Assembly (NCBI GenBank): GCA_963668185.1
Contig: OY764162.1
Coordinates: forward strand, 2,660,478 to 2,724,477
Source: Dehalococcoidia bacterium
GTDB taxonomy: Bacteria; Chloroflexota; Dehalococcoidia; Lucifugimonadales; G963668185
Length of the DNA stretch: 64,000 nucleotides
Direction of reading: 5' to 3'
Shown: in pieces, positions 25,995 to 61,587 of the stretch
Position numbering within the stretch: the stretch's first letter is position 1
Layout of the letters: every line of letters begins with the position of its first letter
The notes under the pieces: generated by a model
Seen by the model: the letters and a program-made list of their open reading frames with translations, nothing else
Told to the model about the DNA's origin: nothing
Databases searched by the model: none
Made by a program: the position numbers and the translations under genes

Positions 25995-26738
25995 ATGACC
26001 GCGGCGCCAGAATTCATCCTCGGCTTCGATCCAGGTGGACAGAAAGCCTTTGGCTGGAGCGTATGCAAACGGGACCGTGACGGCAGATTGTGCCGTGTGG
26101 AGACTGGTGTGGTGAGTAACGCCGAAGAAGCACTCTGTGCAGTCAAGGGGAAAGTTGGAGCCTCCAGAGTCTTGGCAACAGGCATCGACGCTCCATTACT
26201 CTGGAGCAAGAAGGGGAATAGAGAGATTGACCGCAAGATCAGATGCGAGTTGAGTGAGAAGTGTTTCGAGACACGCTGCCGGAAGAGAAGCAAGAGACAA
26301 GTGCACGAAACGGTTCAGCACATCAATAGTTTACGAGGTGCGTGCACAGTTCAAGGTGTCTTGCTGGCAAAGTATCTTAGCGAAGAGCATCCCCATGCAA
26401 AGATTACGGAGACGCATCCCAAGGCCTTGTCCTTTCTGCTAAGGTGCGAGTGCGAATGCTCGAAAGAGCACGAGTGTCAGGACGAATGCAGAGAGCTTTG
26501 TCGCTTGCTAGAAGCTACACTAGATAAGAAGAAAGTTGAGGAACACCAATGCGGAAAGGAGGAGCCCAAGCGAGACAGGCGCGATGCCGTCATTTCTGCG
26601 TATGCCGCTTGGTCAATGCTCAATCAACTTGAGTTGAAGCCCCATGACCGCACATGGAGTAATCTTTACGAGCAGGAACCCAATCCTCTTCGACCATTCG
26701 GCACTTGCGTAAGCTACTGGATGCCAATTACGCCATAG
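25995..26738 (+). CDS. DUF429-like predicted nuclease (RNase H-like)
   Basis: GFDPGG N-terminus, GIDAPL, ITETHP, RRDAVISAYAA; visibly lower GC than its neighbours. Confidence 0.7.
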   Translation: MTAAPEFILGFDPGGQKAFGWSVCKRDRDGRLCRVETGVVSNAEEALCAVKGKVGASRVLATGIDAPLLWSKKGNREIDRKIRCELSEKCFETRCRKRSKRQVHETVQHINSLRGACTVQGVLLAKYLSEEHPHAKITETHPKALSFLLRCECECSKEHECQDECRELCRLLEATLDKKKVEEHQCGKEEPKRDRRDAVISAYAAWSMLNQLELKPHDRTWSNLYEQEPNPLRPFGTCVSYWMPITP

Positions 26739-26753
26739 TGAGGAGCACTCCCC

Positions 26754-28148
26754 ATGACCCATCCTGACATCGCCCTGATGGCCCACCTGATGCGCCGCGC
26801 CGGCTTCGGCGCTCCCAGGACCGAGCTCGAAGCACGCGCCGCCGCCGGCTACGAGGCCACCGTCGAAGAGCTTCTGTCCCCCGAAGACCAGGAGCCGGTG
26901 GACATCTTCGAGTTCCTGCGCTACCACCCAAGCCACTGGAAGCCCGGCACCCTCGGCGGCGTCGGCCAGGCAAGCTGGGTGTACCGCATGATCGCCACCA
27001 ACGCGCCGCTCCAGGAGAAGATGACCCTCTTCTGGCACCAGATCTTCGCCACAGGCGTCTCCAAGGTCGACCACTACCACGAAGTAACCGCCATGGTGGA
27101 CATGTTCCGGGACATCGGCATGGGCAAGTTCCGCGACATCGTCACCGGCGTCGCTAAGAACCCGGCCATGATCTTCTGGCTCGACAACCACGAGAACCAC
27201 GCATACGCCGTCAACGAGAACTGGGGCAGGGAGCTTCTCGAACTCTTCACCATGGGCGTCGGCAACTACACTGAGGAAGACGTTTACGAGGCCAGCCGCG
27301 CCTTCACGGGCTGGACGATAACGCCCAACCTGCCGCGGTTCACCATGGGCCGGTTCGACTGGGAGTTTGAGTACCGCGACCACGATCACGACCACACGGA
27401 GAAGAACTTCCTCGGTCACACCGGCAACTTCAACGGCGAAGACGTGATCGAGATCATCCTCGACCACCCGCAGTGCTCCCGGTTCATCGCCCGCCACCTG
27501 TACAACTACTTCGTTGCGGACGAGCCGCAGGTCCCCGCATGGAACGACACGCCGCCCAGGGACCCGGAGGCCGTTGAGGCTATAGCCGCCGCCCTGCGAG
27601 AGTCGGACTACGACATGCGCCACGCCCTGCGTGTGCTCTTCAACTCGGACTTCTTCAAGGACGCCCGCTTTGCCAGGGTGAAAAGCCCGGCTGAGGCCGT
27701 CATCGGCGCCCTGCGCCTCGCCGGCGGCAACGACTTTCCCGGCCCCTTCATGGTCGACTACGCTGAGGCCATCACCAACATGGGACAGGAGTTGCTGAAC
27801 CCGCCCTCGGTTGAAGGCTGGCACACCGGCGTCGAGTGGATCAACACAGGCTCCTCGGTCAAGAGGATCAACTTCTTCGCGGAGGTCCTGGGCGACGTGG
27901 GCCGCCCCGGCATTCACGAAATGCTCACTCGATTGAAGGCCCGGGGCGAGCTTTCGCCCGACGAGTTCGTCGACGGCTGTCTGGACCTCATGGGCCCCGT
28001 CGAAGTGACCGAGGACACTCACCGCGAGCTTGTAGATCACGCCGCCCAGTCCGGCCCGGTCGACTGGACCGGCAACGGGGCGTCGGAGACGCGCTTCTCC
28101 GAGATGGTGCAGTTGATCGCGTCCACAAGAGACTACCAGTTCGCATAG
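26754..28148 (+). CDS. DUF1800 family protein
   Basis: HLMRRAGFG, LQEKMTLFWH, NENWGRELLELFTMG, PPSVEGW. Confidence 0.9.
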   Translation: MTHPDIALMAHLMRRAGFGAPRTELEARAAAGYEATVEELLSPEDQEPVDIFEFLRYHPSHWKPGTLGGVGQASWVYRMIATNAPLQEKMTLFWHQIFATGVSKVDHYHEVTAMVDMFRDIGMGKFRDIVTGVAKNPAMIFWLDNHENHAYAVNENWGRELLELFTMGVGNYTEEDVYEASRAFTGWTITPNLPRFTMGRFDWEFEYRDHDHDHTEKNFLGHTGNFNGEDVIEIILDHPQCSRFIARHLYNYFVADEPQVPAWNDTPPRDPEAVEAIAAALRESDYDMRHALRVLFNSDFFKDARFARVKSPAEAVIGALRLAGGNDFPGPFMVDYAEAITNMGQELLNPPSVEGWHTGVEWINTGSSVKRINFFAEVLGDVGRPGIHEMLTRLKARGELSPDEFVDGCLDLMGPVEVTEDTHRELVDHAAQSGPVDWTGNGASETRFSEMVQLIASTRDYQFA

Positions 28149-28192
28149 GGAAGCAGCGCCGTGACCACTCAAATCATCGCCAACACAATCAA

Positions 28193-28229
28193 CCCCTTCC
28201 CCAGTCTGCTGGGGAAGGCTGGGATGGGG
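28193..28229 (+). repeat. CCCTTCCCCAGTCTGCTGGGGAAGG-type hairpin repeat
   Basis: Same family as 3056, 41918 and the copies inside 50597-51850. Confidence 0.85.
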
Positions 28230-28267
28230 TTCTGCATCGCACGAATGGGATCCGGTGAGGTTCGCTA

Positions 28268-29299
28268 ATGGTTACTCAAATCATCGCCAATAGGGTTTAC
28301 GACTACAGTCACGCCATTGGCGGCAGGGACATGATGAAGCCGTACAGCCTCGCATTGGCGTCGGGCAACGTTCTGTACCTGGTGAATCGCCTCATCTCCG
28401 GCCTGGCGCAGGTCCGCGCGGGGGCCGGAATCCCTACACAGATCAAGAAGATCGACACAGGCGCCGCTCCGGGGCAGGAGGAACTTCTGGCGGAGTTCGG
28501 CGTCATGGGCGAAGGCGAAGACCAGGTCTATTGGCCGTCCGGCATCGCCTGCGACAGCGCCGGCAACGTGTACGTCGCCGACGAGTGGCGGAACCGCATC
28601 GCCGTGTTTGACGGTGACGGACGTTTCCTCCGCGCGTGGGGAGAGCAGGGGAGTGGCGAAGGCCAGATCCTCGGCCCGTCCGGCCTGCAGTTCGACGTCG
28701 ACGACAACCTGTACGTCGTCGATGGCCGCAACCACCGCGTCCAGAAGTTCACCGGCGGCGGCGAGCGCATCGGCGGCTGGGGATCGCAGGGCTCCGGCCC
28801 CGGGCAGTTCGACTCGCCCTGGGGCCTGACCATCGACCATAACGGCGATGTGTACGTCGCCGACCACAAGAACAACCGCGTCCAGAAATTCACGCCCGAA
28901 GGCGAGTACCTGATGGAGTTCGGCAGCTACGGCGAAAAAGTGGGCGAGTTGAACCGCCCCACAGATGTCGCCGTCGACCCGGACGGAGACGTCTACGTTT
29001 GCGACTGGGCCAACAACCGCGTCAACGCATACGACAGCGCCGGCGCGCCCATCACCACGTTCGTAGGCGACGCCGCCGAGCTATCGAAGTGGCAGCAGCA
29101 GTTCGTCGACTCCAACGAAGGCGAGAAGCTGGCTAGGCGAAGGGCAGTGGACAAAGAAATCGGCTGGCGTCTCGCCATGCCCACCGCCGTCGAGTTCCAC
29201 CCCGCCAATAACTGGCTCATCATCTCAGACTACCAGCGCGGCCGCTTCCAGATCTACGCCAAGCTAAGCGACTACGACGAACCTCAGTTCAACCTGTAA
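28268..29299 (+). CDS. NHL-repeat beta-propeller protein
   Basis: Repeated F/W..P.GIA.D..GNVYVAD..NHRVQKF units. Confidence 0.9.
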   Translation: MVTQIIANRVYDYSHAIGGRDMMKPYSLALASGNVLYLVNRLISGLAQVRAGAGIPTQIKKIDTGAAPGQEELLAEFGVMGEGEDQVYWPSGIACDSAGNVYVADEWRNRIAVFDGDGRFLRAWGEQGSGEGQILGPSGLQFDVDDNLYVVDGRNHRVQKFTGGGERIGGWGSQGSGPGQFDSPWGLTIDHNGDVYVADHKNNRVQKFTPEGEYLMEFGSYGEKVGELNRPTDVAVDPDGDVYVCDWANNRVNAYDSAGAPITTFVGDAAELSKWQQQFVDSNEGEKLARRRAVDKEIGWRLAMPTAVEFHPANNWLIISDYQRGRFQIYAKLSDYDEPQFNL

Positions 29300-29324
29300 G
29301 AGGTAAGAGGGGACGCCCGCATCA

Positions 29325-29698
29325 CTACGCCTCGGACGTGCCGTCCGTCCCGGCCAGCGCTAGAACGCCGTTCACGAAATCGTGCACAATCGCGCGGTCG
29401 TCCAAGATCTCGAACTCCTCCATGAAGTCGTGGTAGAAGTTGCGGTGAAACTTTTCCGCGGCGGCAAATCCGCCTCGTAGCGCTGGGTCGCCGGACTGGT
29501 CCGCAAGTTGCCGCACTGCCGTTTTCAGTGAGCGGTGACTTCCATCAGGCCATCCGTTGTTTTGTGCCGCTGCCATGACAGCATGAGAAGCGGCGCCCCA
29601 TAGCTTCTCGCAGGCTTGCAGCCGGTCTCCGACGCTGAATTCCTTGTCGGAGTCCCTCAAGAACGTTCTGGCGGTCTGGATATGCTCGACTGCGTTCA
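29325..29698 (-). CDS. PaREP1-family (HEPN-like) protein, copy 1
   Basis: QACEKLWGAASHA and AEKFHRNFYH motifs; start placed at MNAVEH. Confidence 0.75.
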
Positions 29699-29760
29699 TG
29701 GGATCAGGCCCCTCCATTTTCTTGCCTAAGCCAACACAGTTCATCTCTTGGCTTGGATTA

Positions 29761-29830
29761 TACCAAGCGCGGCCGCTTCCAAATCTACGCCAATCTAAGC
29801 GACTACGACGAACCCCAGTTCAACCTGTAG
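29761..29830 (+). pseudogene. Duplicated 3-prime stub of the NHL gene
   Basis: Near copy of 29231-29299 (RGRFQIYAxLSDYDEPQFNL stop) with a few substitutions and one indel. Confidence 0.85.
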
Positions 29831-29839
29831 CGCCCACCT

Positions 29840-30934: not shown

Positions 30935-30944
30935 AAGTTGATCC

Positions 30945-32624: not shown

Positions 32625-32639
32625 TCCTCCTTCCTTTGG

Positions 32640-32678
32640 CCCCTTCTCCCCTACGCGGGAGAAGGCCGGGATGAGGGG
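32640..32678 (+). repeat. Hairpin repeat variant overlapping the ureB 3-prime end
   Basis: CCCCTTCTCCC-CTACGC-GGGAGAAGG-CCGGGATGAGGGG, same layout as the CCCTTCCCCAG family. Confidence 0.7.
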
Positions 32679-33049
32679 GAAACGTCCTCGTGCAGAAACC
32701 CCGCCTCTATCGCCCGCTCCACCGCAGCATCAGCGTCCGCCTCATCGAGCGCTCCGTTAACAAGCCCGTGGAACCCGTGCACGCGCCGCGCCCCGCCGAC
32801 ATCCACCAGCCGCACCCGCTTCCGCTCGCCAGGCTCCCAGCGAACAGCCGCACCCGCCGGTACATCGAGCCGCCTGCCGTACGCCGCTCTGCGGTCGAAC
32901 CGCAGCAGCCGGTTCGCCTCGAAGAAGTGGTAATGCGAAGTCACCGAAACCGCGTGTCCGGACGTGTTCTCCACCTCGATCGACACCGCCTCGCGCCCCG
33001 CGTTGCACAGGACCGTGCCCTCTCTGGTGAACACCTCTCCAGGCCTCAT
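32651..33049 (-). CDS. ureB: Urease beta subunit
   Basis: NAGRE, SHYHFFEAN, AYGRRLDVPAG.AVRWEPG, HGFHGLVNG. Confidence 0.9.
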   Translation of the reverse strand: MRPGEVFTREGTVLCNAGREAVSIEVENTSGHAVSVTSHYHFFEANRLLRFDRRAAYGRRLDVPAGAAVRWEPGERKRVRLVDVGGARRVHGFHGLVNGALDEADADAAVERAIEAGFLHEDVSPSSRPSPA

Positions 33050-33053
33050 GCCC

Positions 33054-33419
33054 TCATCCTTCCTGAGCTATGGAGAGAATCTTTTCGATGAAGTCCTCCA
33101 CCGATGGACGGGAGAACTGCAACTCTTCAAGTTCCATGAAACCGTGATAGAAGTTGGCGTGAAACTTCTCCGCGACGGCGAATCCGTCCCGTATGGAGTT
33201 GTCGCCGTATTCGATGCTGAGATCCCCCGCCGCCTTGCGCAGGGTGGCGTGAGTCCCGCACGGCCAGCCGCGCTGCCTGGCGACGGTTATCAGGGCCTGT
33301 GAAGCGGCGCCCCAGAGCTTCTCAGAACCCTGCATGTACTCTCCCACGGAAAACTCATGGTTCGCCCTTTCCAGAAATTCCCGCGCAGTTTCCGCGTGCT
33401 GCTCTACAGACATCACCAT
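33054..33419 (-). CDS. PaREP1-family (HEPN-like) protein, copy 2
   Basis: QGSEKLWGAASQA and AEKFHANFYH motifs; lies between ureA and ureB. Confidence 0.75.
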   Translation of the reverse strand: MVMSVEQHAETAREFLERANHEFSVGEYMQGSEKLWGAASQALITVARQRGWPCGTHATLRKAAGDLSIEYGDNSIRDGFAVAEKFHANFYHGFMELEELQFSRPSVEDFIEKILSIAQEG

Positions 33420-33440
33420 GATATGCCCCCTCGCTTTGCA

Positions 33441-33906: not shown

Positions 33907-34350
33907 CTCCTTAGGACCTATTATTACCACTGCCTGCCGTATCACGGCAATCCTCCCACGGAGGACGAGCGCAAACGGTATTCGACGCAGAGAAGGTTCT
34001 TTGACTCCTTGGAGCGCCTACCCCGCTACAAGGTCAGACTGGGTCGGCTTGCGCGCCGCGTTGGCAAAGATGGAAGGCCGAGGTACTCGCAGAAGCGAGT
34101 CGACATCCTGCTGGGCGTGGACATGGTGCAGCTAGCTGCCAAGCAGGCGATTCAAGAAGCGGTGTTGCTGGCTGGAGACAGCGATTTCATCCCCGCCGTC
34201 GCCGCGGCCCAGTCCGAGGGCGTGGTGATCAGGCTGTTTCACGGACGACGCCCGCACAACGACCTGTGGCAAGTGGCTGACGAGAGGACTCAGATCACTC
34301 AAGACTTGATACAGTCGGTCTTGCTGGATCTCGCAACTTCGCAGGACTGA
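33907..34350 (+). pseudogene. 5-prime-truncated NYN/LabA (DUF88) nuclease
   Basis: Frame reads LLRTYYYHCLPY...QKRVDILLGVD...LAGDSDFIPAV; in-frame TAG at 33856 and no upstream FIDG motif or start codon. Confidence 0.7.
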
Positions 34351-34356
34351 GCGCCC

Positions 34357-38609: not shown

Positions 38610-38663
38610 GCTTGATCTCCGTGTAGCCTGGTTCTTCGTCGACGCTCCCCCATAAACGCAAGA

Positions 38664-38695
38664 ACGGTGCGGACCCCTTTCCGGCCCCGCACCGT
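38664..38695 (-). terminator. Hairpin after hsp20
   Basis: ACGGTGCGG...CCGCACCGT stem with TTCTT tail on the minus strand. Confidence 0.45.
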
Positions 38696-38724
38696 CCTAT
38701 GCTCGATGAAGCCGAAGCTGCCGC

Positions 38725-41211: not shown

Positions 41212-41676
41212 GTGAAGAAAGTGTGGTCCGGGATAGTAGCCGTAGCCAGCGACTCCCTGGCATGGAAGGCGCTCTTAGTCGCAGCGTTGATCTACATCGC
41301 CTTGTATGTAGCGACTGACGTGTTGTTGGATAAAGACACCGCGGCTGGAGCTAAGGCCGCCGTACTCGCCCTTATTGCGGCGACCGGGATCGGCATCAAC
41401 ACGATCCCCGTAAGGGCGATGAAGGAGCCTAGCGTCCTAGACGATCAGGACACACCCCGCTGGATTCAACGGATGCGGAGATATCGAAGCGGGTTTGCGT
41501 CGGTAGTGGATGGCGTCGCAGTGGCCATACCTGCTACGGGCGGTTGGTTCGCCGCACAGCAATGGCTGCTGAGCGAAAGTACCGATAACTCATACTACGT
41601 GCTGATGACGCTGCTGGGCATGATAGCCCACGCGGGACTGTACCTCAGTCTAATGAGCCGGTTCCATCGGGGTTAG
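41212..41676 (+). CDS. Hypothetical membrane protein (about 4 TM)
   Basis: TAGAAT -10 and AGGAG RBS upstream; hydrophobic segments; lower GC. Confidence 0.65.
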   Translation: MKKVWSGIVAVASDSLAWKALLVAALIYIALYVATDVLLDKDTAAGAKAAVLALIAATGIGINTIPVRAMKEPSVLDDQDTPRWIQRMRRYRSGFASVVDGVAVAIPATGGWFAAQQWLLSESTDNSYYVLMTLLGMIAHAGLYLSLMSRFHRG

Positions 41677-41765: not shown

Positions 41766-41862
41766 GCTGCCCCTCCATAGTGCTAGGATAGCACACACCG
41801 CCGCGCCCGCCGGGGCAGTGCCAGGGTCTTTTCGTTTTCCGTTCGCCCTTGTATCTTGACTA

Positions 41863-41990
41863 TCCCTTCTCCCTTGAGAGCCTGCCCTGAGTCTGTCCAA
41901 GGGGTGAGAGCAAAAGTCCCTTCCCCAGTCTGCTGGGGAAGGCTAGGATGGGGTTTCCCCTCACCGTTCGCCCTGAACTTGTCGAAGGGC
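41863..41990. repeat. Composite repeat cluster
   Basis: Hairpin with nested 24-bp module (41878-41901), CCCTTCCCCAG type (41918), CCGTTCGCCCTGAACTTGTCGAAGGG (41964). Confidence 0.8.
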
Positions 41991-42039
41991 CACTAACCAC
42001 CAGCCACTAAAAACCAAAAACTAAAGGAAGGCACTCACA

Positions 42040-42960
42040 ATGACCGCCACCCGCTGGTACAAAGGCAACATCCACACCCACACCAACCTGTCCGACGGCG
42101 ACGCCACGCCCGAAGTGGCCGTCCGCTGGTACCGCGACCACGAGTACGACTTCCTCGTTCTCAGCGACCACAACCACCTCACCCTCTACGAGCACGCCGA
42201 GTCCGACTCCGGCGCGCCCCTGATGGTCCCCGGCGAGGAGGTCACCGTCGGCCTGCCGAACCCGGGGAAGCAGTACCAGATCCCCGTCCACATCATCGCC
42301 ATCGGCATCGACCGCATGGTCGAGCCCATCGACGCCGGCGACGTCGTCACCACCCTCCAGGCCAACATAAACGCCATCGCCGAGGCGGGAGGCATCTCCT
42401 CGATCGCCCACCCGAACTACCGTTGGGCCTTCGACCACCGCGAGATCGCCGCCGTCTCCGGCGCCGCCTGCATGGAGATCTTCACGCCGGACAGCAACAT
42501 AGACGGCGCGCCCGGCCGCTACAGCACGGAGCAGATCTGGGACAACGTCCTCTCCGCCGGGCGACCCATCTGGGGCGTCGCCGTAGACGATACCCACGAC
42601 TATTACGACTTCGCCCCCGGCAAGTTCAACCCCGGCAAAGGCTGGATCGTCGTCCGTGCCGCCGAACTCACGCGCGACGCCATCGTCGGCGGCATCGAGC
42701 GCGGCGACTTCTACGCCTCCACCGGCGTCGAACTCGACGAACTTGAAATCGACGAAGAAGGCATCAGTCTCCGCGTCCGCCAGAACGAAGACTGGGAATA
42801 CGCCGTCACCTTCACAGGCCGCGGCGGTACGACATTCGCCCAGACCGCCGGCCCCGAAGCCACCTACCGCTTCCGCGGCAACGAAGGCTACATCCGGGCC
42901 ACCGTAACCTGCTCCAACCCCATCAAAGCCTGGACCCAACCCGTCTTCCTGAGCGAGTAG
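42040..42960 (+). CDS. PHP-domain metallohydrolase (CehA/McbA-like), copy 1
   Basis: KGNIHTHT..SDG, SDHN, GEEVT, AHPN, VDDTHD. Confidence 0.85.
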   Translation: MTATRWYKGNIHTHTNLSDGDATPEVAVRWYRDHEYDFLVLSDHNHLTLYEHAESDSGAPLMVPGEEVTVGLPNPGKQYQIPVHIIAIGIDRMVEPIDAGDVVTTLQANINAIAEAGGISSIAHPNYRWAFDHREIAAVSGAACMEIFTPDSNIDGAPGRYSTEQIWDNVLSAGRPIWGVAVDDTHDYYDFAPGKFNPGKGWIVVRAAELTRDAIVGGIERGDFYASTGVELDELEIDEEGISLRVRQNEDWEYAVTFTGRGGTTFAQTAGPEATYRFRGNEGYIRATVTCSNPIKAWTQPVFLSE

Positions 42961-43023
42961 CAACACCCATCCCATCCGTCTGGGTGACGATTTGCAAATC
43001 GAAGCCGTTCAAGAGGAACGAAA

Positions 43024-43950
43024 ATGACCGGGACTCGTTGGTACAAGGGCAACATTCACACCCATACCGACCTGTCGGATGGCGACGCCACGCCCGAAGT
43101 CGCCGTCCGCTGGTACCGCGACCACGAGTACGACTTCCTCGTCCTCAGCGACCACAACCACCTAACCCTCTACGAACACGCCGAATCACAGTCCGGGCGT
43201 CCTCTGATGATTCCCGGCGAAGAGGTCACCGTCAACATCCCGAGGCCCGTCCGGGACCACCCTCTTCCGGCTCCCGTCCACGTCATCGCCATCGGCATCC
43301 GCAGGGTTGTCGAACCAATAAACACAGGCGATATAGTGACGACTCTCCAGGCCAACATCGACGCCGTCGCGGAGGCTGGCGGCATCTCCTCGATCGCCCA
43401 CCCCAACTACTTGTGGGCGTTCGATCACCGAGAGATCGCTGCCGTCAGCGGCGCGGCCTGCATGGAGATAGCCTCGCCGCACCGCAACGACAACGGCGCT
43501 CCCGGCCGCTACAGCACAATGCAGATTTGGGACAACGTACTCTCGGCCGGTCGGCCCATCTGGGGCGTCGCCGTCGACGACGCGCACAACTACTACGACT
43601 TCGGCCCCGGAATGTACAACCCTGGCAAGGGCTGGATCGTCGTCCGTGCCGCCGAACTTTCGCAGGACGCCATCGTCAACGGCATAGAGCGCGGCGACTT
43701 CTACGCCTCCACCGGCATAGAACTGGACGAACTGGAGACCGACGCCGAGGGCATCCGCCTCCGCATCCGCCAGCACGAAGACTGGGAGTACATCGTCACC
43801 TTCACAGGCCGCGGCGGTACGACATTCGCCCAGATCGCCGGCCCCGAAGCCACCTACCGCTTCCGCGGCAACGAAGGCTACATCCGAGCCACCGTAACCT
43901 GCTCCAACCCCATCAAAGCCTGGACCCAACCCATCTTCCTCAGCCAATAA
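43024..43950 (+). CDS. PHP-domain metallohydrolase (CehA/McbA-like), copy 2
   Basis: Tandem paralog of 42040-42960 with the same metal-ligand motifs. Confidence 0.85.
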   Translation: MTGTRWYKGNIHTHTDLSDGDATPEVAVRWYRDHEYDFLVLSDHNHLTLYEHAESQSGRPLMIPGEEVTVNIPRPVRDHPLPAPVHVIAIGIRRVVEPINTGDIVTTLQANIDAVAEAGGISSIAHPNYLWAFDHREIAAVSGAACMEIASPHRNDNGAPGRYSTMQIWDNVLSAGRPIWGVAVDDAHNYYDFGPGMYNPGKGWIVVRAAELSQDAIVNGIERGDFYASTGIELDELETDAEGIRLRIRQHEDWEYIVTFTGRGGTTFAQIAGPEATYRFRGNEGYIRATVTCSNPIKAWTQPIFLSQ

Positions 43951-47263: not shown

Positions 47264-47620
47264 TCACATATACAGCCTCGGCGCCGGCATCAACTCATGG
47301 TTCGTCGTATCCGCGATCAGCCCCAGCGATTGAAGCGTCGTCGCCCCAAGCAAGAACTGCCCCTCCTCCCCAAACACAACCGGACTCGGAGCCTCCACGC
47401 CATTCACCCGAATAAGAGCTGAACCAACCGGCATAGCCCTCTCCCGGCCGTCCGCAAGAGTGAAAGTCAACACCCGTGTCGGAGTCACCCCCACGCGCTC
47501 GCGCAGCAACGAGTCCGGCAACACCGTGAACGTAGCGCCCGTATCCACAAGCGCCTCCACCCACTCCGGCTCTCCGCCGTTCCCATTGCTCACCCCGACC
47601 TGCGCCTTGAAAACCCCCAT
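47264..47620 (-). CDS. Retropepsin-like (clan AA) aspartyl protease
   Basis: LVDTGA catalytic motif, LADG, LLGATTLQSLGL. Confidence 0.85.
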   Translation of the reverse strand: MGVFKAQVGVSNGNGGEPEWVEALVDTGATFTVLPDSLLRERVGVTPTRVLTFTLADGRERAMPVGSALIRVNGVEAPSPVVFGEEGQFLLGATTLQSLGLIADTTNHELMPAPRLYM

Positions 47621-49122: not shown

Positions 49123-49222
49123 GTAGGGGCCGTTCGCGAACGGCCCAATCCCGCACGGCAGATTAACACCCCTCGACCCGCACTCCAGCATTGCCGTCAT
49201 ACCGGCGGGGGCCGGTATCCAG
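49123..49222. repeat. GTAG hairpin and CGTC hairpin upstream of DUF4268
   Basis: GTAGGGGCCGTTCGCGAACGGCCC (49123) and CGTCATACCGGCGGGGGCCGGTATCCAG (about 49195). Confidence 0.8.
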
Positions 49223-49308
49223 AGGGGCCGGGGGAACTCCGCCTCTGCTAAACTCCGTAGATATCCTATTGGCAGCTAGGTACGTCTGCCAACAAAGGAA
49301 AGCAAACC

Positions 49309-50265
49309 ATGACCAGTGTAGTAGAACTCGCAAACATCGAGAATGTCGATATTCGCCGTGCTTGGCCCAACGAAGCTTCGAACTTCACCCCATGGCTCGC
49401 CGAGAACCTCGACAGGCTGGGCAACGCCTTGGGCTTGGAATTGGAACTGCTGGGCCGGGAGGCAGAGGTAGGACCATTCAAGCTGGACATCCTCGCCCAG
49501 GAGACTGGCACTAATCGCAAAGTGATAGTCGAGAACCAACTTGAGATTACTGATCATAGTCATCTCGGACAGTTGCTCACATACGCCTCAGGGTACGATG
49601 CTAAGGTTATCGTATGGGTAGCTGGTCAGTTTAAGGACGAGTACCGCCAAGCCCTGGACTGGCTGAATCAGCTATCGCCAGAGGACATCGAGTTCTTCGG
49701 AGTCGTTGTCGAACTTTGGCAAATTGGAGATTCTGCGCCTGCTCCGCACTTCAAAGTCATCTCATCACCCAACGACTGGCAAAAGGACTGGCAAAAGGGC
49801 AGGATGAGCCCAACTTCTGCCCCGTCGGAACGCAACGAACGCTATCGCAGATTCTTCCAAGACCTTATCGATACCCTAAGGCAAGAACACGGATTCACGA
49901 ATGCGCGAAAGGGGCAGCCACAGAATTGGTATACCTTTTCGTCTGGCGTCAGCGGATTCAATTACTCAACTTTCTTTGCATCTGACAATATGGCTAAGGT
50001 AGGAATCTACATCGACTGTGGCCAGAAGGAGCAGAATGAGGAGTACTTCGAGCAATTGAGGGAGCAGCAGGATTCGTTGGGCACGACCTTCGACGAACCG
50101 CTGCAATGGCTCAGACTGGACAATCGACGAGCATGCAGGATCGTGGTTCAAACTCCCGGTAGCATTGACGACGACGATGAAGCTCTAAATCACATCCACG
50201 ACTGGATGATCCAGAACGTCATGAGGTTCAAAACTGTCTTCGGTCCCAAGCTAAGCGAACTCTAG
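49309..50265 (+). CDS. DUF4268-domain protein with PD-(D/E)xK-like N-terminal domain
   Basis: FTPWLAEN, LDILA...VIVENQL..TDHSHLGQLLTYA, C-terminal PQNW, GIYID, L.W.RLD; lower GC. Confidence 0.8.
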   Translation: MTSVVELANIENVDIRRAWPNEASNFTPWLAENLDRLGNALGLELELLGREAEVGPFKLDILAQETGTNRKVIVENQLEITDHSHLGQLLTYASGYDAKVIVWVAGQFKDEYRQALDWLNQLSPEDIEFFGVVVELWQIGDSAPAPHFKVISSPNDWQKDWQKGRMSPTSAPSERNERYRRFFQDLIDTLRQEHGFTNARKGQPQNWYTFSSGVSGFNYSTFFASDNMAKVGIYIDCGQKEQNEEYFEQLREQQDSLGTTFDEPLQWLRLDNRRACRIVVQTPGSIDDDDEALNHIHDWMIQNVMRFKTVFGPKLSEL

Positions 50266-50281
50266 TCACAGCCCACCACGT

Positions 50282-50465
50282 GCAGGGGGCGCTTCGCGAA
50301 GCCCCCGCCCTCTCCAGAACCCCGTCATTCCGGCATTCACGCGCCAGCGTGAACCGGGGCCAGCCGGAATCCAGCAGGGCGGGCGGGGCCACCGCCCTTC
50401 CTCCTGTCATTCCGATCGAGCGAAGCAGCCCTCTGTCGTTCCGAGTCCCCCGAGGAACCTACAGC
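50282..50465. repeat. Composite repeat cluster with branched CGTC hairpin
   Basis: GCAG/GTAG-type hairpin, branched hairpin 50323-50374, CTGTCATTCCGATCGAG and GAGTCCCCCGAGG pieces. Confidence 0.8.
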
Positions 50466-50560
50466 CTCACGCCCTCCACAAACGCCCGCCCCCATCAACC
50501 AACCGCCCGTCCGCTCCCCACTCGCCACTATTCACTATCCACCATCCACTCCCCCTCCCC

Positions 50561-50589
50561 TTGACACACTGGTACGCGCCCGCTATCCT
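50561..50589 (+). promoter_or_regulatory. Sigma70-type promoter, probably leaderless transcript
   Basis: TTGACA, 17-bp spacer, TATCCT; ATG 7 nt after the -10 at 50597. Confidence 0.7.
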
Positions 50590-50596
50590 AGAACCC

Positions 50597-51850
50597 ATGG
50601 ATACCGGAGCGCACACCATATCACCAATACAACGCATCGTCCGAGAAGAAACCGACGACGGCAGACTCATCGTCCGTTTCCTAGTCGCCGCCATGCAGGA
50701 CCAGATCCGCGGCGCCAAGCCCTACCACAGGCTAGACGCCGCGCGCCAACTCATCAAACTCGGCTTCGAAGAAGCCAAAGAGTTCGCCTCCATCAAACCC
50801 CTTCCCCAGTCTGGCGGAGCCTGCCCCGAGTCCCTCGAGGGGGAAGGACGGGATGGGGCTCCCACAGACACCCTCGACACCACCGGCCTAAACCCCGACC
50901 TCGCACGCTTCATACGAGCCGAGACCGACGGAGGACGTCAAGCCATACGATTCCTCATAGACGTCATGCTAGGCTTCATGCCCGGCTTCGGCCCCCACCA
51001 CCGCATAGACGCCGCCAAAGAACTGCTGCGCCGAGGCTTCGACGACGCACCCGGCCCCCTAGACCACGACACCTACGCCGACGCAGAACTAAACCCCCTT
51101 CCCCAGTCTGCTGGAGCCTCCCTCAAACCCCTTCCCCAGTCCGCTGGAGCCTCCCTCAAACCCCTTCCCCAGTCTGCTGGGGAAGGCCGGGATGGGGTTC
51201 CCGACATCCTAGCCGGCTACGAACCCCCGTACTCCAACACATACGGCCACAGCGGAGACACCGGCTTCGACAATCGAGCCGTCTCCAAAGCGACAGACGC
51301 CCTGCTGGACGCCGTCGGCAGGCGCCCGACGCCCCCGGACCCCAGAGTCGTTTACCCCTCCAAACGCGGCAGCATCATCATACACAACGGAGAGGAGCAC
51401 TACTTCAGCGAACACGCCCGGCCGGCCGTCGAAAGGTCCATAGCGGCCGGCGAAATCATAGACGCGGTCAAGCGCATCCGCGAATCATGCCGCGGCCCCA
51501 TCCGCATCGCGTGCCGCCACGGCACAGCATCCTGCGACTGCGAATCCGACCCCTGGGCCGAACACCCCAACGACCCGCACGCCCCCGGCGCCGAACCCCC
51601 CGACGGCTCACCCGACCCGTCTGACCCCTTCCCCAGTCTGCTGGGGAAGGCCGGGATGGGGTCCTCCGACAACCCCTCCGTCATTCCCGCGAAGGCGGGA
51701 ATCCATCCGCCCGAACCCGCCGAAGTCGAACCCGACCCGTCTGACCCCTTCCCCAGTCTGCTGGGGAAGGCCGGGATGGGGTCGGCCGGCGCGTCTCACA
51801 CCGAACCCGCCGATGACCCACCCGCCACCCCGGCAGAAAACCCGCCCTGA
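50597..51850 (+). CDS. Hypothetical protein with duplicated helical domain and in-frame repeat insertions
   Basis: Two copies of RxETDxGRxxxRFL...HRxDAAxxLxxxGF; repeat-derived peptides KPLPQSAG, PFPSLLGKAGMG, ACPESLEG, VIPAKAGIH. Confidence 0.65.
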   Translation: MDTGAHTISPIQRIVREETDDGRLIVRFLVAAMQDQIRGAKPYHRLDAARQLIKLGFEEAKEFASIKPLPQSGGACPESLEGEGRDGAPTDTLDTTGLNPDLARFIRAETDGGRQAIRFLIDVMLGFMPGFGPHHRIDAAKELLRRGFDDAPGPLDHDTYADAELNPLPQSAGASLKPLPQSAGASLKPLPQSAGEGRDGVPDILAGYEPPYSNTYGHSGDTGFDNRAVSKATDALLDAVGRRPTPPDPRVVYPSKRGSIIIHNGEEHYFSEHARPAVERSIAAGEIIDAVKRIRESCRGPIRIACRHGTASCDCESDPWAEHPNDPHAPGAEPPDGSPDPSDPFPSLLGKAGMGSSDNPSVIPAKAGIHPPEPAEVEPDPSDPFPSLLGKAGMGSAGASHTEPADDPPATPAENPP

Positions 51851-51861
51851 TGCCCTCAGGT

Positions 51862-51940
51862 GTAGAGGCGCTTCGCGCCGCGCCATCTGTCATTCCCGCA
51901 TTCCTGCGACAGCAGGAACCCGGGGCTGGCGGGAATCCAG
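51862..51940. repeat. GTAG hairpin plus branched CGTC hairpin
   Basis: Homologous to 50282-50374 with compensatory stem changes. Confidence 0.8.
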
Positions 51941-52044
51941 TTGAGCGGGGAGTCACGCCTTCCAACCGCCGCAACGGCGGAGGAGTGTTACACAGGGGGC
52001 GGCCTGTGTAACATCGTGGGTGGGCGCGTTATAGACTGCCGGCC

Positions 52045-52628: not shown

Positions 52629-53261
52629 CTAGAACCCTTGAATATCCACTCCGATGGACACCATGTACATGGCGACCATGATAGCGACAATAAGGCCTGC
52701 TACAAGCCACGAGTACGCGATGATAAAGGGGACCAAGTAGCCGTAGTTCAGTGCGTCTGGGATAGTTGTATCGTCAATTGACGAATTCCGGAAATGCACT
52801 TCGTCGTACCTGTCCGATCGGTACATTCGATAAAGCCATCTGGCTGATATGAACATCGTGACTCCGCAAGCCAAAGTTAAGGCTCCGAGCAACACAGTTG
52901 CGAAGATTGCAGAGCCAATGCTTGCATCAGGAGCGACGTATCCGGTCTCAGTGCCAAGTGTGTACTCCCAAATCCACATGCTCTCCAAAGCAAATCCCGC
53001 AGCTGCTCCGATGCAGATTGCGTAGGCGAAGAAGTAGATGACCACCATGGCAGCGGAAGGGAGGCAGCGCCCGAAGATTCGAGCAACCACGTAAGGCCAA
53101 GGGAAGATGAACGCGCCAAAAGCCATGCCAGCCACAGCGAACTGCAAGACTTCTCGTTTCCTGACGAACGCAAATGTCGTGCAGAGTAGGCAAGAGACTA
53201 TTGCTGTCACTGCCCCTGCGGTGGCCAGCAGAGCTAGGGCAAATATGGTCATTATGCCCAT
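52629..53261 (-). CDS. Hypothetical polytopic membrane protein (about 5-6 TM)
   Basis: Multiple hydrophobic segments; lower GC. Confidence 0.65.
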   Translation of the reverse strand: MGIMTIFALALLATAGAVTAIVSCLLCTTFAFVRKREVLQFAVAGMAFGAFIFPWPYVVARIFGRCLPSAAMVVIYFFAYAICIGAAAGFALESMWIWEYTLGTETGYVAPDASIGSAIFATVLLGALTLACGVTMFISARWLYRMYRSDRYDEVHFRNSSIDDTTIPDALNYGYLVPFIIAYSWLVAGLIVAIMVAMYMVSIGVDIQGF

Positions 53262-53280
53262 GCGCTACGCTCCACGAGGC

Positions 53281-53517
53281 TTAAGGTGTAATGGGAGAGA
53301 CGATATCGCCGTGAATCTGGATGATGTCCCGGTAGCGTCCGAATGGGGTGCTTGGCTTCTTACTGTAAGGCGCCAACTTGGAGACAGGCCGGCCGTGCTT
53401 GGTGATCACGATCTCTTCGCCGGTCTCCGCCACCTCGTCCATAAGCTTCAGGCACCTTGCCTTGAACTCGGATGCCTTGATCGTCCGGGAACTTGTGATA
53501 CTGCTGTCTTTGGGCAT
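53281..53517 (-). CDS. Phd/YefM family antitoxin
   Basis: IKASEFKARCLKLMDEVAETGEEIVITKHGRPVSKL. Confidence 0.85.
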   Translation of the reverse strand: MPKDSSITSSRTIKASEFKARCLKLMDEVAETGEEIVITKHGRPVSKLAPYSKKPSTPFGRYRDIIQIHGDIVSPITP

Positions 53518-57946: not shown

Positions 57947-58407
57947 TGCCGCGCTCCGGCGATCAGCGCCCGGACCGACTCTACGGTCGCGCGCCCATGC
58001 CAGCGGTGGTCGAACTCGACGGCGGGAGCGACGCCGCACAGGAAGCCGCACTCGACCTCCTCGAAGGTGATCGCGCCGTCGGTCGTCGTCTGGCCGGACG
58101 GCAGGCCGAGGTCGTCGGAGACCGCGCTCGCGATGTCGCGTCCGCCCTGCTGCCAGCACGGCAGGCCGGTGCATACGCGCAGCACATGAGCGCCCGGCTT
58201 GTCGATGCGCAACTCGGTGTAGCTGGTGGCCGCGCCGTACACCTCGCTGGCCGGCATCCCGAGGTGCCATCCGACCACCTCCATGCCCCAGTCGGGCAGA
58301 TGGCCGAACTGCTCGTGCAGGAAGTGCAGCGCGGGCAGAAGCTGGCCGTGGTCACGGGGAAACCTGTCCCGCAGCGCCCTGCGAAGGGTCCTCTGGTCTG
58401 TGATCAA
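57943..58407 (-). CDS. NuoE/FdsG-like [2Fe-2S] subunit
   Basis: LLPALH...GHL, SEVYG.ATSY, CxxxxC (CTGLPC) and CxxxC (CGFLC) then AP. Confidence 0.88.
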   Translation of the reverse strand: MITDQRTLRRALRDRFPRDHGQLLPALHFLHEQFGHLPDWGMEVVGWHLGMPASEVYGAATSYTELRIDKPGAHVLRVCTGLPCWQQGGRDIASAVSDDLGLPSGQTTTDGAITFEEVECGFLCGVAPAVEFDHRWHGRATVESVRALIAGARQ

Positions 58408-58486
58408 TACATTCTCAATAGGGGAAGGGCCAGACGTACTGGCACGCCCGGATTGCCGCAAACCCTATATCAACGCCCCCGATTGT

Positions 58487-60313: not shown

Positions 60314-60365
60314 GTCTGCCTCAGAGGTTTAATCGCTATAGCAGCATTGTACCTAACGCCGTTCG

Positions 60366-60677
60366 CTAGCCCCCGGAAAGGCTGGAGAAGAGCAGCAGCG
60401 CGTCGCCGTCGGCGAGGGACACCGGCTCGTCGGCAACGAACAGGTTGCCGTTCAGGTTGAATGTGTAGCTGGGCGCGAGGTCCGCGCCATCTTCGCGTAT
60501 GGCCACGCCGACTAGCTCAGGGCAGGCGCCGGCGAGGGCGCGCGCCACGTCAGCGCGGCGGGACCGCGCGGGCACGGCGACGTCAACGGCGGCGCGCCCG
60601 TAGGCGAGCCGGGCTGAGCCGAACAGCTCCACGGCGACGCGGACGGAGGGGCGTTCAGGACGGTGCGCGGTTTCCAC
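60366..60677 (-). CDS. moaD: MoaD/ThiS family sulfur carrier
   Basis: VELFG, beta-grasp pattern, C-terminal SGG; adjacent to AOR and mobA. Confidence 0.75.
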   Translation of the reverse strand: METAHRPERPSVRVAVELFGSARLAYGRAAVDVAVPARSRRADVARALAGACPELVGVAIREDGADLAPSYTFNLNGNLFVADEPVSLADGDALLLFSSLSGG

Positions 60678-60789
60678 TTGCGATGCCTTGGGCTTTACGG
60701 CCTACTGGAGATTCAATATCTTCCAACTGTACCGCCGTTGATAGTCTGCCTCGCTCCATATCGCACCCCACTCGACGTTCTTCCCCGCG

Positions 60790-61587
60790 CTACGTCGGTC
60801 TCTGCAAGGCCAACGTGAGCCATGCCGGCAATGCTGCCCGGGGGTTCTCGTTCCAGTCCAGCAGGCTGTCGTCAGTTCCCGGCAAGTACGAAAAGCCTTG
60901 CCAGAATCTTGAGTCGCCGGCGGGACTCTCCAAGATTCGCCGTAGGATGAACCCCGCGGTCGTCAGAGGGTTGAGAATGTCTGCAAGAGTCCAGTTGAAC
61001 CTGAATGCACCTTCCTTCCGGTCCTTGAAAGGCCCGGTTTCCCAATATGGTTTTGCAACCTCAATCGGTAGAACCTGGTCTTTCCAAGGACGCTGGAAGG
61101 GGTGGATGTCGTAACAAACGTAGTGCCCGCCTGGCCGCAGGATGCGATACATCTCACTGAAGACCGCCTGCAGGTCTGCAATCCAAACGAAGAATCCGTT
61201 GGATGAGAAGACCAGATCGAACTCCGCGTTCCCGATAAGACTTAGATCGGCGGCATCAGCCTGCACAAACTTGATTGGCAACCTCAGGTGTCCCGCTCGT
61301 TTCGAGGCTACCGCCAGGCGCCGCTCGGAGATATCTACCGAGGTGACATTTGCTCCCATCCCGGAAAAAGCGAAGGCAGCGTGGTTGTCCCCACTACCAA
61401 CAATGCATACGTCTTTGCCAGGCACTGCACCGACGACCTCGCGAGCCAGTCCAAGCCCGCCTCCTGCGAAGGCTATGTCAGGATCGGAAGGGCAGCGTTG
61501 CCAAAGCCCGCCTTCTTCTTCAAGCTCCTCCCACCACTCCGCGACCTCGTTCCAGTACCGCCGGTTGGCTTGGTGCCTAGTACTCAT
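60790..61587 (-). CDS. Class I SAM-dependent methyltransferase
   Basis: VCIVGSGD motif I, VTSVDIS, FDLVFS, RILRPGG; codon style differs from its neighbours. Confidence 0.85.
   Translation of the reverse strand: MSTRHQANRRYWNEVAEWWEELEEEGGLWQRCPSDPDIAFAGGGLGLAREVVGAVPGKDVCIVGSGDNHAAFAFSGMGANVTSVDISERRLAVASKRAGHLRLPIKFVQADAADLSLIGNAEFDLVFSSNGFFVWIADLQAVFSEMYRILRPGGHYVCYDIHPFQRPWKDQVLPIEVAKPYWETGPFKDRKEGAFRFNWTLADILNPLTTAGFILRRILESPAGDSRFWQGFSYLPGTDDSLLDWNENPRAALPAWLTLALQRPT

What the first reader, a model, noticed from the sequence alone, without database searches (positions are those of the whole stretch)
25995..61587. Series of single-gene, compositionally foreign cargo genes between host genes, with no mobility gene
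DUF429 (25995), PaREP1 (29325, 33054), NYN remnant (33907), membrane gene (41212), aspartyl protease (47264), DUF4268 (49309), membrane gene plus Phd (52629-53517) and methyltransferase (60790) each interrupt host-like runs, in two cases apparent operons (ure, mob-moaD). Many are nuclease or TA-type families, several abut hairpin repeats, and some have duplicated neighbour ends. Inference: a distributed one-gene cassette acquisition route using hairpin repeats and short homology rather than IS or integron machinery. This, with the nested repeats, is my best candidate for an undescribed system.
Basis: inference. Interest (0 to 1): 0.62.

Follow-up and report, generated by a model that had tools for sequence, protein, structure and literature searches.

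The report
Scattered selfish-gene islets, recombinase-free insertion
Ten small, compositionally odd genes really are species-specific add-ons wedged between conserved genes, but they are separate gains of toxin-antitoxin and defence-type genes at reusable sites, not one cassette system, and hairpin repeats play no detectable part.

Summary
All ten listed genes sit at the stated coordinates. Eight belong to the stated families, and the other two are multi-pass membrane proteins with no family match. All have low GC3 (4th-23rd genome percentile). All ten vary among three same-genus genomes, while only 3 of 27 flanking genes do (p=8e-7). Two sit inside conserved gene strings (ureA-ureB; MoaD-like-mobA). 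No transposase, integrase or reverse transcriptase lies in the interval.

REP-like hairpins are depleted, not enriched, beside low-GC3 genes genome-wide (12.3% vs 18.0% of intergenic regions, p=1e-4). Only 2-3 of the 10 cargo genes abut one, which is the background rate. The inserts share no common ends.

One cargo gene, PaREP1 at 29325-29744, has a 64-68 nt duplication of its neighbour's 3' end, and one relative holds the empty site. Genome-wide, 23 genes have such flanks against 0.35 expected. Seven empty sites were verified.

This matches "insertion with long target duplication", described for restriction-modification genes and still mechanistically unsolved. The rest fits mobile-element-free hotspots: six of nine sites hold different cargo in congeners. 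It is a new member of known kinds, of moderate interest.

The parts
25995..26738 (+). DUF429 gene, GC3 0.57. It is absent from this site in G001 and G002. G003 holds a 43%-identical allele at the same site.
29231..29298 (+). Direct repeat copy 1: the last 64-68 nt of the NHL-repeat gene, ending inside its stop codon. The first A of the insert recreates TAA.
29299..29760 (-). 462-nt insert holding only the PaREP1/HEPN-like gene (29325-29744). G001 has the empty site.
29761..29829 (+). Direct repeat copy 2: the non-coding duplicate of the NHL gene's 3' end with the native TAG. It is 94-95% identical to copy 1.
33054..33419 (-). Second PaREP1 gene, inserted ORF-precisely between ureA and ureB. 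It uses the old ureB ribosome-binding region, and its stop lies 4 nt before the ureB start. No flanking repeat.
33908..34350 (+). 5'-truncated NYN nuclease gene. G003 has the full 203-aa gene plus a PaREP1 at this site. G001 has a HigA-like antidote gene and G002 a Gp49/HigB-like plus antidote pair.
41212..41676 (+). 154-aa membrane protein with 3-4 hydrophobic spans and no family match. Absent from all three relatives. A composite REP array lies 161 nt downstream (41837-42000).
47264..47620 (-). Retropepsin-like aspartyl protease, one of 8 paralogs in the genome. Present in G001 (64%) and G002 (76%), absent from G003.
49309..50265 (+). DUF4268 gene, a full-length match to the PADLOC single-gene defence candidate PDC-S11. 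Absent from all relatives. REP hairpins lie on both sides, and it sits at a synteny breakpoint.
50561..51850 (+). orf429, a member of a roughly 21-copy gene family of unknown function with REP hairpins read in frame. It is not a recognisable mobility gene.
52629..53261 (-). 210-aa protein with five hydrophobic spans, occupying the toxin position downstream of Phd. Absent from all relatives. G002 has a PIN toxin there instead.
53281..53517 (-). Phd/YefM antitoxin gene. Its ortholog (76%) and upstream region are shared with G002 only.
60790..61587 (-). Class I SAM methyltransferase between the MoaD/SAMP1-like gene and mobA. Absent from all relatives. G003 has an AAA_33 kinase-like gene at the same site.

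Best explanation
The interval is ordinary chromosome of an uncultured bacterium. Earlier scan notes, unchecked here, place it in Dehalococcoidia-class Chloroflexota. Its genome is peppered with one- and two-gene accessory islets.

Most of the ten genes are selfish or defence-type: two HEPN-like PaREP1 genes, a decayed NYN nuclease, a Phd antitoxin with a swapped partner, a PDC-S11/DUF4268 defence candidate, DUF429 and a retropepsin-like protease. A methyltransferase and two small membrane proteins complete the set.

They are independent gains of different ages, not parts of one system.

New genes enter without any dedicated recombinase, by illegitimate joining of short foreign DNA into the chromosome (inferred). 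When the two joints overlap, a stretch of target is duplicated. This is shown for PaREP1 at 29325, where 64-68 nt of the neighbour's 3' end are duplicated and an empty site survives in G001. It is shown for at least six more inserts elsewhere in the genome.

Selection keeps only the events that leave both neighbours intact. That would explain why the duplications cover stop codons, start codons or promoters (inferred).

Once a site is occupied it is tolerated and reusable. Cargo is then exchanged, replaced or lost, probably by homologous recombination in the conserved flanking genes (inferred). The evidence for reuse is that six of nine sites hold different cargo in congeners.

REP-like hairpins simply populate intergenic DNA and take no detectable part.
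For: Variability. Cargo genes vary in 10 of 10 cases and flanking genes in 3 of 27 (p=8e-7).

Genome-wide pattern. 25% of called genes have GC3 below 0.76, in 371 runs of which 229 are singletons, spread evenly along the chromosome.

PaREP1a scar. A 64-68 nt direct repeat of the NHL gene's 3' end flanks a 462-nt one-gene insert. G001 is contiguous across the predicted empty site. The duplication ends within the stop codon, and each copy has its own later changes, which fits duplication of the recipient's own sequence.

The same scar genome-wide. 23 genes have non-REP flanking direct repeats of at least 24 nt, against 0.35 expected. Of these, 14 are low-GC3 (p=2.8e-4). Empty sites are contiguous in relatives for 7 inserts. 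The cargo is PIN (three times), Phd, ParD, DUF2442, PLDc_2+DpnI_C, PaREP1 and the aspartyl protease.

No enzyme in sight. The inserts share no termini. G000 has only two Xer-like tyrosine recombinases, both orthologous in all four genomes, no reverse transcriptase, and only weak Y1-transposase hits.

Site reuse. Other toxin-antitoxin and defence genes occupy the same junctions in relatives. Overlap between G000 and G003 is 6 sites, p=0.003.

Precedent. Hotspots free of mobile elements that turn over by flanking homologous recombination are described in PMC5635113. Insertion with long, variable target duplication and no mobility gene is described in PMC2853133.
Against: Nine of the ten window genes carry no insertion scar, so their mode of entry is inferred, not shown.

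The available relatives are only about 80-87% identical in DNA. Junctions cannot be resolved to the base, and recombination tracts in the flanking genes could not be tested.

Four cargo genes are shared with one or two congeners, so some of the 'presence' may be ancestral with loss elsewhere.

Accessory genes here are far more dispersed (371 runs of low-GC3 genes among about 2500 called genes) than the roughly 1% of regions reported for classical hotspots.

Low GC3 is only a proxy for foreign origin, and my gene calls are home-made.
Confidence: 0.68

Rival explanations
1. A dedicated, distributed one-gene cassette acquisition route uses the dispersed hairpin (REP-like) repeats as recombination or priming sites.
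For: DUF4268 has REP hairpins on both sides, memb1 has an array downstream, and DUF429 has a degenerate hairpin upstream. The genome carries about 945 REP-like intervals and two weak Y1-transposase-like hits.
Against: REP-like repeats are depleted next to low-GC3 genes (12.3% vs 18.0%, odds ratio 0.64, p=1e-4). They are not enriched beside singleton low-GC3 genes (24.7% vs 30.8%). Seven of the ten cargo genes have none nearby. Empty sites in relatives also hold REPs. Insert termini share nothing.
Confidence: 0.04
2. A real cassette life cycle built on the long target duplications. The flanking repeats let a one-gene unit loop out as a small circle carrying one repeat copy, transfer, and re-enter the homologous site of a naive genome by a single crossover. 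Selfish toxin-antitoxin and nuclease genes would then spread as integrase-free cassettes. This is the cycle Kobayashi's group proposed for restriction-modification units.
For: There are 23 duplication-flanked genes against 0.35 expected, enriched for low-GC3 genes, and the ten small inserts typed carry PIN, Phd, ParD, PLD-nuclease, HEPN-like and similar genes. Two such units, with their repeats, are retained in three of the four species. One site carries three copies of its repeat. The cycle is discussed in PMC2853133.
Against: Only 1 of 10 window genes has the repeats. Units shared across species can be explained by vertical descent. Selection for intact neighbours explains the position of the repeats without any cycle.
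Confidence: 0.12
3. No insertions at all. The genes are ancestral to the genus and were differentially lost. Low GC3 reflects low expression or relaxed selection, not foreign origin.
For: The aspartyl protease is present in 3 of 4 genomes. DUF429 and NYN are shared with G003, and Phd with G002. NYN is visibly decaying. G000 is the smallest of the four genomes and has lost the AI-2E transporter gene between mgtE and hsp20.
Against: The target duplication with an intact empty site proves insertion for PaREP1a and at least six others. Six cargo genes are unique to G000, which would need three independent clean losses each. The relatives' ureA-ureB spacer of 22-24 nt with its ribosome-binding site looks primary. 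Different unrelated genes sit at the same sites.
Confidence: 0.1
4. Worn-down remnants of integrase-borne islands. The direct repeats would be attL/attR cores and the single genes would be what is left after internal deletion.
For: The repeat lengths (27-124 nt) lie within the range of att identity blocks, and duplications of a gene's 3' end are typical of integrative elements (own knowledge; discussed in PMC2853133).
Against: G000 has no integrase other than two conserved Xer-like genes. The inserts are 276-1113 nt and carry no integrase fragment. Every repeat is a different, unique sequence at an ordinary gene end, not a tRNA gene.
Confidence: 0.05

Closest known systems
Insertion with long (and variable) target duplication (Nobusato et al. 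2000, Gene 259:99; Furuta, Abe and Kobayashi 2010, PMC2853133)
   Same: A short foreign segment with no mobility gene is flanked by direct repeats of more than 30 bp that are unique in the genome. Both repeats align to a single copy at the empty site of a relative. The repeat often overlaps the 3' end of the neighbouring gene, and the insert's GC content is below the genome average. PaREP1a (64-68 nt) and at least six other inserts in this genome meet these points.
   Different: The class was described for restriction-modification units, mostly in naturally competent Proteobacteria. Here the cargo is single toxin-antitoxin, HEPN-like, PIN, PLD-nuclease or protease genes of 0.3-1.1 kb in a Chloroflexota genome, with 23 candidate cases in one 2.8-Mb genome. 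Nine of the ten window genes lack the scar.
Horizontal-transfer hotspots free of mobile elements, turned over by homologous recombination in flanking core genes (Oliveira et al. 2017, PMC5635113)
   Same: Variable genes lie between conserved syntenic core genes. No integrase or transposase is nearby. Different gene families occupy the same junction in related genomes.
   Different: Here the variable spots are many and tiny: one or two genes each, in 371 runs of low-GC3 genes. They are not concentrated in about 1% of intervals. Elevated recombination in the flanks was not testable with four genomes at about 82% identity.
Integron gene cassettes
   Same: One promoter-less gene per unit, often a toxin-antitoxin or unknown gene, inserted without a transposase of its own.
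   Different: There is no IntI-type integrase (only two Xer-like recombinases), no attI or attC, no array, and no shared cassette ends. The sites are scattered through the chromosome.
REP/REPIN-RAYT systems and IS200/IS605-derived palindrome-associated elements
   Same: The genome carries several high-copy palindromic repeat families (up to about 350 copies of the core 12-mer).
   Different: The repeats are not enriched at cargo junctions. No clear Y1 transposase is present, only hits of 22-23 bits. Most cargo genes are not bracketed by hairpins.

Membership tests
Insertion with long target duplication (Furuta 2010 criteria) | The insert is absent from a related genome whose flanks align on both sides (an empty site). 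| tested here: met
   For PaREP1a, G001 is contiguous across the predicted empty site (query 2119-2765 in one hit). The same holds for six other inserts. For the other nine window genes the site is empty in at least one relative, but the junctions are not resolvable to the base.
Insertion with long target duplication (Furuta 2010 criteria) | Direct repeats longer than 30 bp flank the insert, and both align to the single target copy. | tested here: met
   PaREP1a has 64-68 nt repeats, 94-95% identical, both aligned to the relatives' NHL gene 3' end. This is NOT met for the other nine cargo genes of the window, where the longest flanking repeat is 12 nt or less.
Insertion with long target duplication (Furuta 2010 criteria) | No mobility gene in or beside the insert, and the repeat is not a dispersed repeat. 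| tested here: met
   The 462-nt insert holds only the PaREP1 ORF. The repeat's 12-mers have fewer than 15 copies in the genome. Neighbours are an NHL-repeat gene and an enolase-superfamily gene.
Insertion with long target duplication (Furuta 2010 criteria) | The cargo is a restriction-modification unit (as used in the published screen). | tested here: not met
   The cargo is PaREP1/HEPN-like. Elsewhere in the genome only one case is restriction-like (PLDc_2+DpnI_C); the rest are PIN, Phd, ParD and others. This criterion defined the published search, not the mechanism.
Mobile-element-free transfer hotspot (Oliveira 2017) | High turnover of accessory genes between the same pair of core genes across genomes, with no integrase or transposase. 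| tested here: met
   Six of nine occupied junctions hold different cargo in congeners. No mobility domains were found.
Mobile-element-free transfer hotspot (Oliveira 2017) | Excess homologous recombination or phylogenetic incongruence in the flanking core genes. | not testable with these tools
   Only three congeners at about 80-87% nucleotide identity are available. No closer genomes were found.
Integron cassette | An IntI integrase with attI, and an attC at each cassette end. | tested here: not met
   There are only two tyrosine recombinases, both conserved in all four genomes. Insert ends share no motif.
REP/RAYT- or IS200/IS605-type hairpin-guided mobilisation | Hairpin repeats at the element's ends, and enrichment of those repeats at mobile junctions. 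| tested here: not met
   Repeats are depleted beside low-GC3 genes (odds ratio 0.64, p=1e-4). Y1_Tnp hits score only 21.7-23.3 bits.
PADLOC PDC-S11 (single-gene defence candidate), for the DUF4268 gene | A full-length match to the PDC-S11 profile. | tested here: met
   E=6.8e-116, residues 1-315 matched to profile positions 1-312 of 318. Pfam DUF4268 E=1.4e-28. Defence activity itself is untested.
Type II toxin-antitoxin pair (Phd/YefM with toxin) | An antitoxin gene directly followed by a cognate toxin gene. | tested here: inconclusive
   The Phd match is clear. The downstream partner here is a five-span membrane protein with no family match, whereas the orthologous Phd in G002 is followed by a PIN toxin.

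The most novel reading that the evidence does not exclude
In this lineage, small toxin-antitoxin, HEPN, PIN and nuclease genes may spread as integrase-free cassettes through insertion with long target duplication. The duplicated target would act as a portable address: it lets the unit loop out as a circle and re-enter the same locus in naive relatives. That would make a route known only from restriction-modification genes, and never explained, into a general mobility mode for selfish genes. This genome, with 23 candidate events and no integrase or reverse transcriptase, would be an unusually clean natural record of it.
Probability: 0.12. Interest if true: 0.6.

Novelty: new member of a known kind. 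Interest (0 to 1): 0.38.

Why it matters
How bacteria gain single genes when no transposase, integrase or phage is involved is still poorly understood. This genome has no tyrosine recombinase beyond two Xer-like genes and no reverse transcriptase (one IS481-family element is active elsewhere), yet it carries hundreds of one-gene islets. At least seven have verified insertion scars with long target duplications.

The finding extends a route described for restriction-modification systems to toxin-antitoxin and other selfish genes, in a distant phylum. It also removes a tempting but wrong link to hairpin repeats.

It opens no new mechanism by itself. The organism is uncultured, and the mechanism behind the duplications stays inferred.

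Tried and rejected
1. Hairpin involvement. I mapped REP-like repeats as 12-mers with at least 40 copies (945 intervals) and tested their adjacency to low-GC3 genes. They are depleted, not enriched.

2. Flanking repeats for each of the ten cargo genes. Only PaREP1a has one.

3. Shared termini or inverted repeats among the 13 duplication-flanked inserts. None were found.

4. orf429 as a hidden mobility gene. It has about 21 diverged copies (78-92% nucleotide identity) and no hit in Pfam, NCBIfam or PDB. Its neighbours are not enriched for low-GC3 genes (13 of 42). I left it as unknown.

5. Closer relatives, for base-level junctions. The genome-contig scan with orf429 found nothing. The metagenome scan with ureC found only relatives at 59% identity or less. 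The exact-protein look-up of ureA found nothing.

7. Retroposition. No reverse transcriptase is present in G000, so I gave this little weight.

8. Integrase remnants. G000 has only two Xer-like recombinases.

9. Case c1764 looks more like a partial tandem gene duplication than a foreign insert. I do not count it as cargo.


Full report
**What the window is**

The window is positions 2660478-2724477 of a single-contig genome of 2.78 Mb and 64% GC. TsaE, MerR and similar genes mark it as bacterial. Earlier scan notes call it an uncultured Dehalococcoidia-class Chloroflexota; I did not check that. I called genes by codon-position GC and ORF length and annotated every gene between 22 and 64 kb with Pfam.

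**Checking the observation**

- DUF429
- PaREP1, twice (with a weak HEPN hit)
- a C-terminal NYN fragment
- a gag-type aspartyl protease
- DUF4268
- Phd
- a class I methyltransferase

The two 'membrane genes' have no family match but carry 3-4 and 5 hydrophobic spans. GC3 of the ten genes is 0.57-0.75, against 0.81-0.92 for their neighbours. That is the 3.7th to 23rd percentile of 2504 called genes. The neighbours are ordinary metabolic genes: glycine-cleavage T, DUF1800, ureABC, a lactonase, an acyl-CoA ligase, mgtE, hsp20, panE, an aminotransferase, an amidase, formate dehydrogenase, aldehyde:ferredoxin oxidoreductase, mobA and tsaE.

**Comparison with relatives**

Three same-genus genomes, G001 to G003, each a single contig, were found. 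I fetched their syntenic regions.

Gene order from brkB to the amidase, and from fdhA to tsaE, is conserved. Protein identities are 75-95% and DNA identity about 80-87%. All ten cargo genes vary:
- Both PaREP1 genes, memb1, DUF4268, memb2 and the methyltransferase are absent from all three relatives.
- DUF429 is absent from G001 and G002. G003 has a 43%-identical allele at the same site.
- NYN is full-length in G003 only.
- Phd occurs only in G002.
- The protease is in G001 and G002.

Cargo varies in 10 of 10 cases and host genes in 3 of 27, p=8e-7.

The ureA-ureB spacer is 22-24 nt in every relative. Here it holds a whole PaREP1 ORF. That ORF has taken over the old ureB ribosome-binding region, and its stop codon lies 4 nt before the ureB start. 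The gap from the MoaD/SAMP1-like gene to mobA is 62-82 nt in G001 and G002, and here it holds the methyltransferase.

No transposase, integrase or reverse transcriptase domain occurs in the interval.

**Is the window special?**

It is not. Genome-wide, 25% of called genes have GC3 below 0.76. They fall in 371 runs, 229 of them singletons, spread evenly along the chromosome.

The relatives carry their own small low-GC3 inserts, often at the same junctions:
- The ureA/lactonase gap holds a HigA-like antidote gene in G001, a Gp49/HigB-like plus antidote pair in G002, and a full NYN plus a PaREP1 in G003.
- The NHL/enolase gap holds a 440-aa DnaJ-membrane protein in G003.
- The MoaD-like/mobA gap holds an AAA_33 kinase-like gene in G003.
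- The fdhA-adjacent site holds Phd plus PIN in G002 and an epimerase in G001.

Six of the nine occupied junctions are reused. For G000 against G003 that overlap has p=0.003.

**Testing the hairpin idea**

The genome has several palindromic repeat families. I mapped them as 12-mers with at least 40 copies, which gave 945 intervals.
- Intergenic regions next to a low-GC3 gene carry such a repeat in 12.3% of cases, and other intergenic regions in 18.0% (odds ratio 0.64, p=1e-4). The deficit holds within every length class and every gene-orientation class.
- For singleton low-GC3 genes the rate of a repeat on either flank is 24.7%, against 30.8% for ordinary genes.
- In the window only DUF4268, memb1 and, weakly, DUF429 lie near hairpins.
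- At least six host-host junctions have hairpins and no cargo.
- The relatives' empty sites also contain them.

**Testing the 'duplicated neighbour ends'**

Only one of the ten genes has this feature. The last 64-68 nt of the NHL-repeat gene (29231-29298) recur at 29761-29829, 94-95% identical. They bracket a 462-nt insert that contains nothing but PaREP1. G001 has the uninterrupted site.

The alignment shows that the duplication ends after the second base of the stop codon. The first A of the insert recreates TAA, and the downstream copy keeps the native TAG and the native continuation. Each copy has its own private changes relative to the congeners. This fits duplication of the recipient's own sequence at insertion, followed by drift.

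**The same scar genome-wide**

I scanned all genes for non-REP direct repeats of at least 24 nt and at least 85% identity between their two flanks.
- 23 genes have them, against 0.35 expected from non-matching flank pairs.
- 14 of the 23 are low-GC3 (p=2.8e-4).
- 15 are under 300 aa.

I took the 13 small cases with repeats of 27-116 nt and built the predicted empty sites, each with one repeat copy and the insert removed. I searched these against the three relatives. Seven are contiguous in at least one relative. Two units (a protease paralog and a ParD-like gene) are present with their repeats in G002 and G003 and empty in G001.

The duplicated stretches cover a stop codon, the sequence just after a stop, a start codon or a promoter-like stretch. 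Both neighbours therefore stay intact.

The cargo is PIN (three times, one with Phd), Phd, ParD, DUF2442, a PLDc_2+DpnI_C nuclease, PaREP1 and the protease. The inserts share no terminal sequence. One case, c1764, is better read as a partial tandem duplication.

**Enzymes that could act in trans**

G000 has only two tyrosine recombinases, each with an ortholog in all four genomes (Xer-like). It has no reverse transcriptase and only 22-23-bit Y1-transposase hits. One IS481-family element of 1132 bp, with at least 9 copies at 99.8-100% identity, is active, but none lies in the window.

orf429 (50561-51850), next to DUF4268, belongs to a family with these features:
- about 21 copies here and about 25 in G003
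- only 1-2 N-terminal-domain copies in G001 and G002
- copies 78-92% identical in DNA
- no Pfam, NCBIfam or PDB match
- REP hairpins read in frame

Its neighbours are not enriched for low-GC3 genes (13 of 42). I cannot call it a mobility gene.

**Comparison with what is known**

Furuta, Abe and Kobayashi (PMC2853133) describe 'insertion with long target duplication', following Nobusato et al. 2000. In that class, restriction-modification units with no mobility gene are flanked by unique direct repeats of 46-423 bp. The repeats align to a single copy at the empty site and sometimes overlap the 3' end of the neighbouring gene. The mechanism is unknown. PaREP1a and the other verified cases meet every structural criterion. 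They differ in cargo and phylum. A later review still lists the route for restriction-modification systems only (PMC3874152).

Oliveira et al. (PMC5635113) show that many transfer hotspots lack mobile elements and turn over by homologous recombination in the flanking core genes. That fits the site reuse seen here, although the spots here are unusually small and numerous.

Earlier notes of this scan pointed me to the Kobayashi papers and reported similar scars in other genomes. I used them as leads and then read the paper myself.

**Mechanism**

What is shown:
- gene gain at defined sites with empty-site controls
- long target duplication in a minority of events
- no shared ends
- no integrase or reverse transcriptase in the genome
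- no hairpin association

What is inferred:
- Entry is by illegitimate or homology-facilitated joining of short foreign DNA, with overlapping joints producing the duplication. A replication template switch would leave the same scar.
- Selection filters for events that spare the neighbours.
- Later exchange happens by homologous recombination in the conserved flanks.

**Verdict**

There is no hairpin-guided system and no single 'system' at all. There is a real recombinase-free insertion signature of a known but unsolved kind, here extended to toxin-antitoxin and defence-type cargo. I rate it a new member of known kinds and of moderate interest.

Noticed in passing
window 50561-51850 (plus upstream repeat array 50286-50468): orf429 belongs to a gene family with very uneven copy number among congeners: about 21 copies here, about 25 in G003 (many with one in-frame TGA), and only 1-2 N-terminal-domain copies in G001 and G002. 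The N-terminal domain of about 165 aa, with two helix-rich repeats, is also multi-copy in two more distant genomes. REP hairpins are translated in frame. No family or PDB match.
   Followed up: partly
window 49157-52044: The amidase | DUF4268-orf429 | glyoxalase junction is a synteny breakpoint. In G001 and G002 the two blocks lie about 160 kb apart. The DNA that follows the amidase in G001 maps about 630 kb away, inverted, in this genome.
   Followed up: partly
window 52629-53517: Partner swap in a toxin-antitoxin locus. The orthologous Phd gene, with its conserved upstream region, is followed by a PIN toxin in G002. Here it is followed by an unrelated 210-aa protein with five membrane spans, 19 nt downstream.
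   Followed up: partly
window 38610-38724: All three relatives have a roughly 400-aa AI-2E family transporter gene between mgtE and hsp20. Here the gap is 115 nt, so this smallest of the four genomes has probably lost the gene.
   Followed up: no
window 42040-43950: The tandem CehA/McbA-type metallohydrolase paralogs (84% identical) vary in copy number: one in G001, two here and in G002, and three to four in G003.
   Followed up: no
genome C1:387491-388621 and at least 8 other sites (outside the window): An active IS481-family insertion sequence of 1132 bp, with at least 9 copies at 99.8-100% identity and terminal inverted repeats. None lies in the window.
   Followed up: partly
genome C1:1151416-1154138 (outside the window): Nested selfish genes. 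A Phd-PIN pair is inserted with a 78-nt duplication into the 3' end of a gene whose tail looks PIN/VapC-like by eye (not run against Pfam). Right beside it, a PLDc_2+DpnI_C nuclease gene (GC3 0.53) is inserted with a 42-nt duplication. Empty sites for the nuclease insert exist in G001 and G003.
   Followed up: partly
genome C1:2365241-2365805 (outside the window): One duplication-flanked insert carries a third, degenerate copy of its 31-nt repeat just inside the insert. This may mean repeated use of the same target.
   Followed up: no
L012-L013 (G002:1886666-1890824): G002 has a 4.1-kb low-GC insert between the enolase-superfamily gene and ureC. It holds a 652-aa protein that looks von Willebrand-type by eye (not run against Pfam) and two smaller genes, and includes a duplicated fragment of the enolase-superfamily gene.
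   Followed up: no
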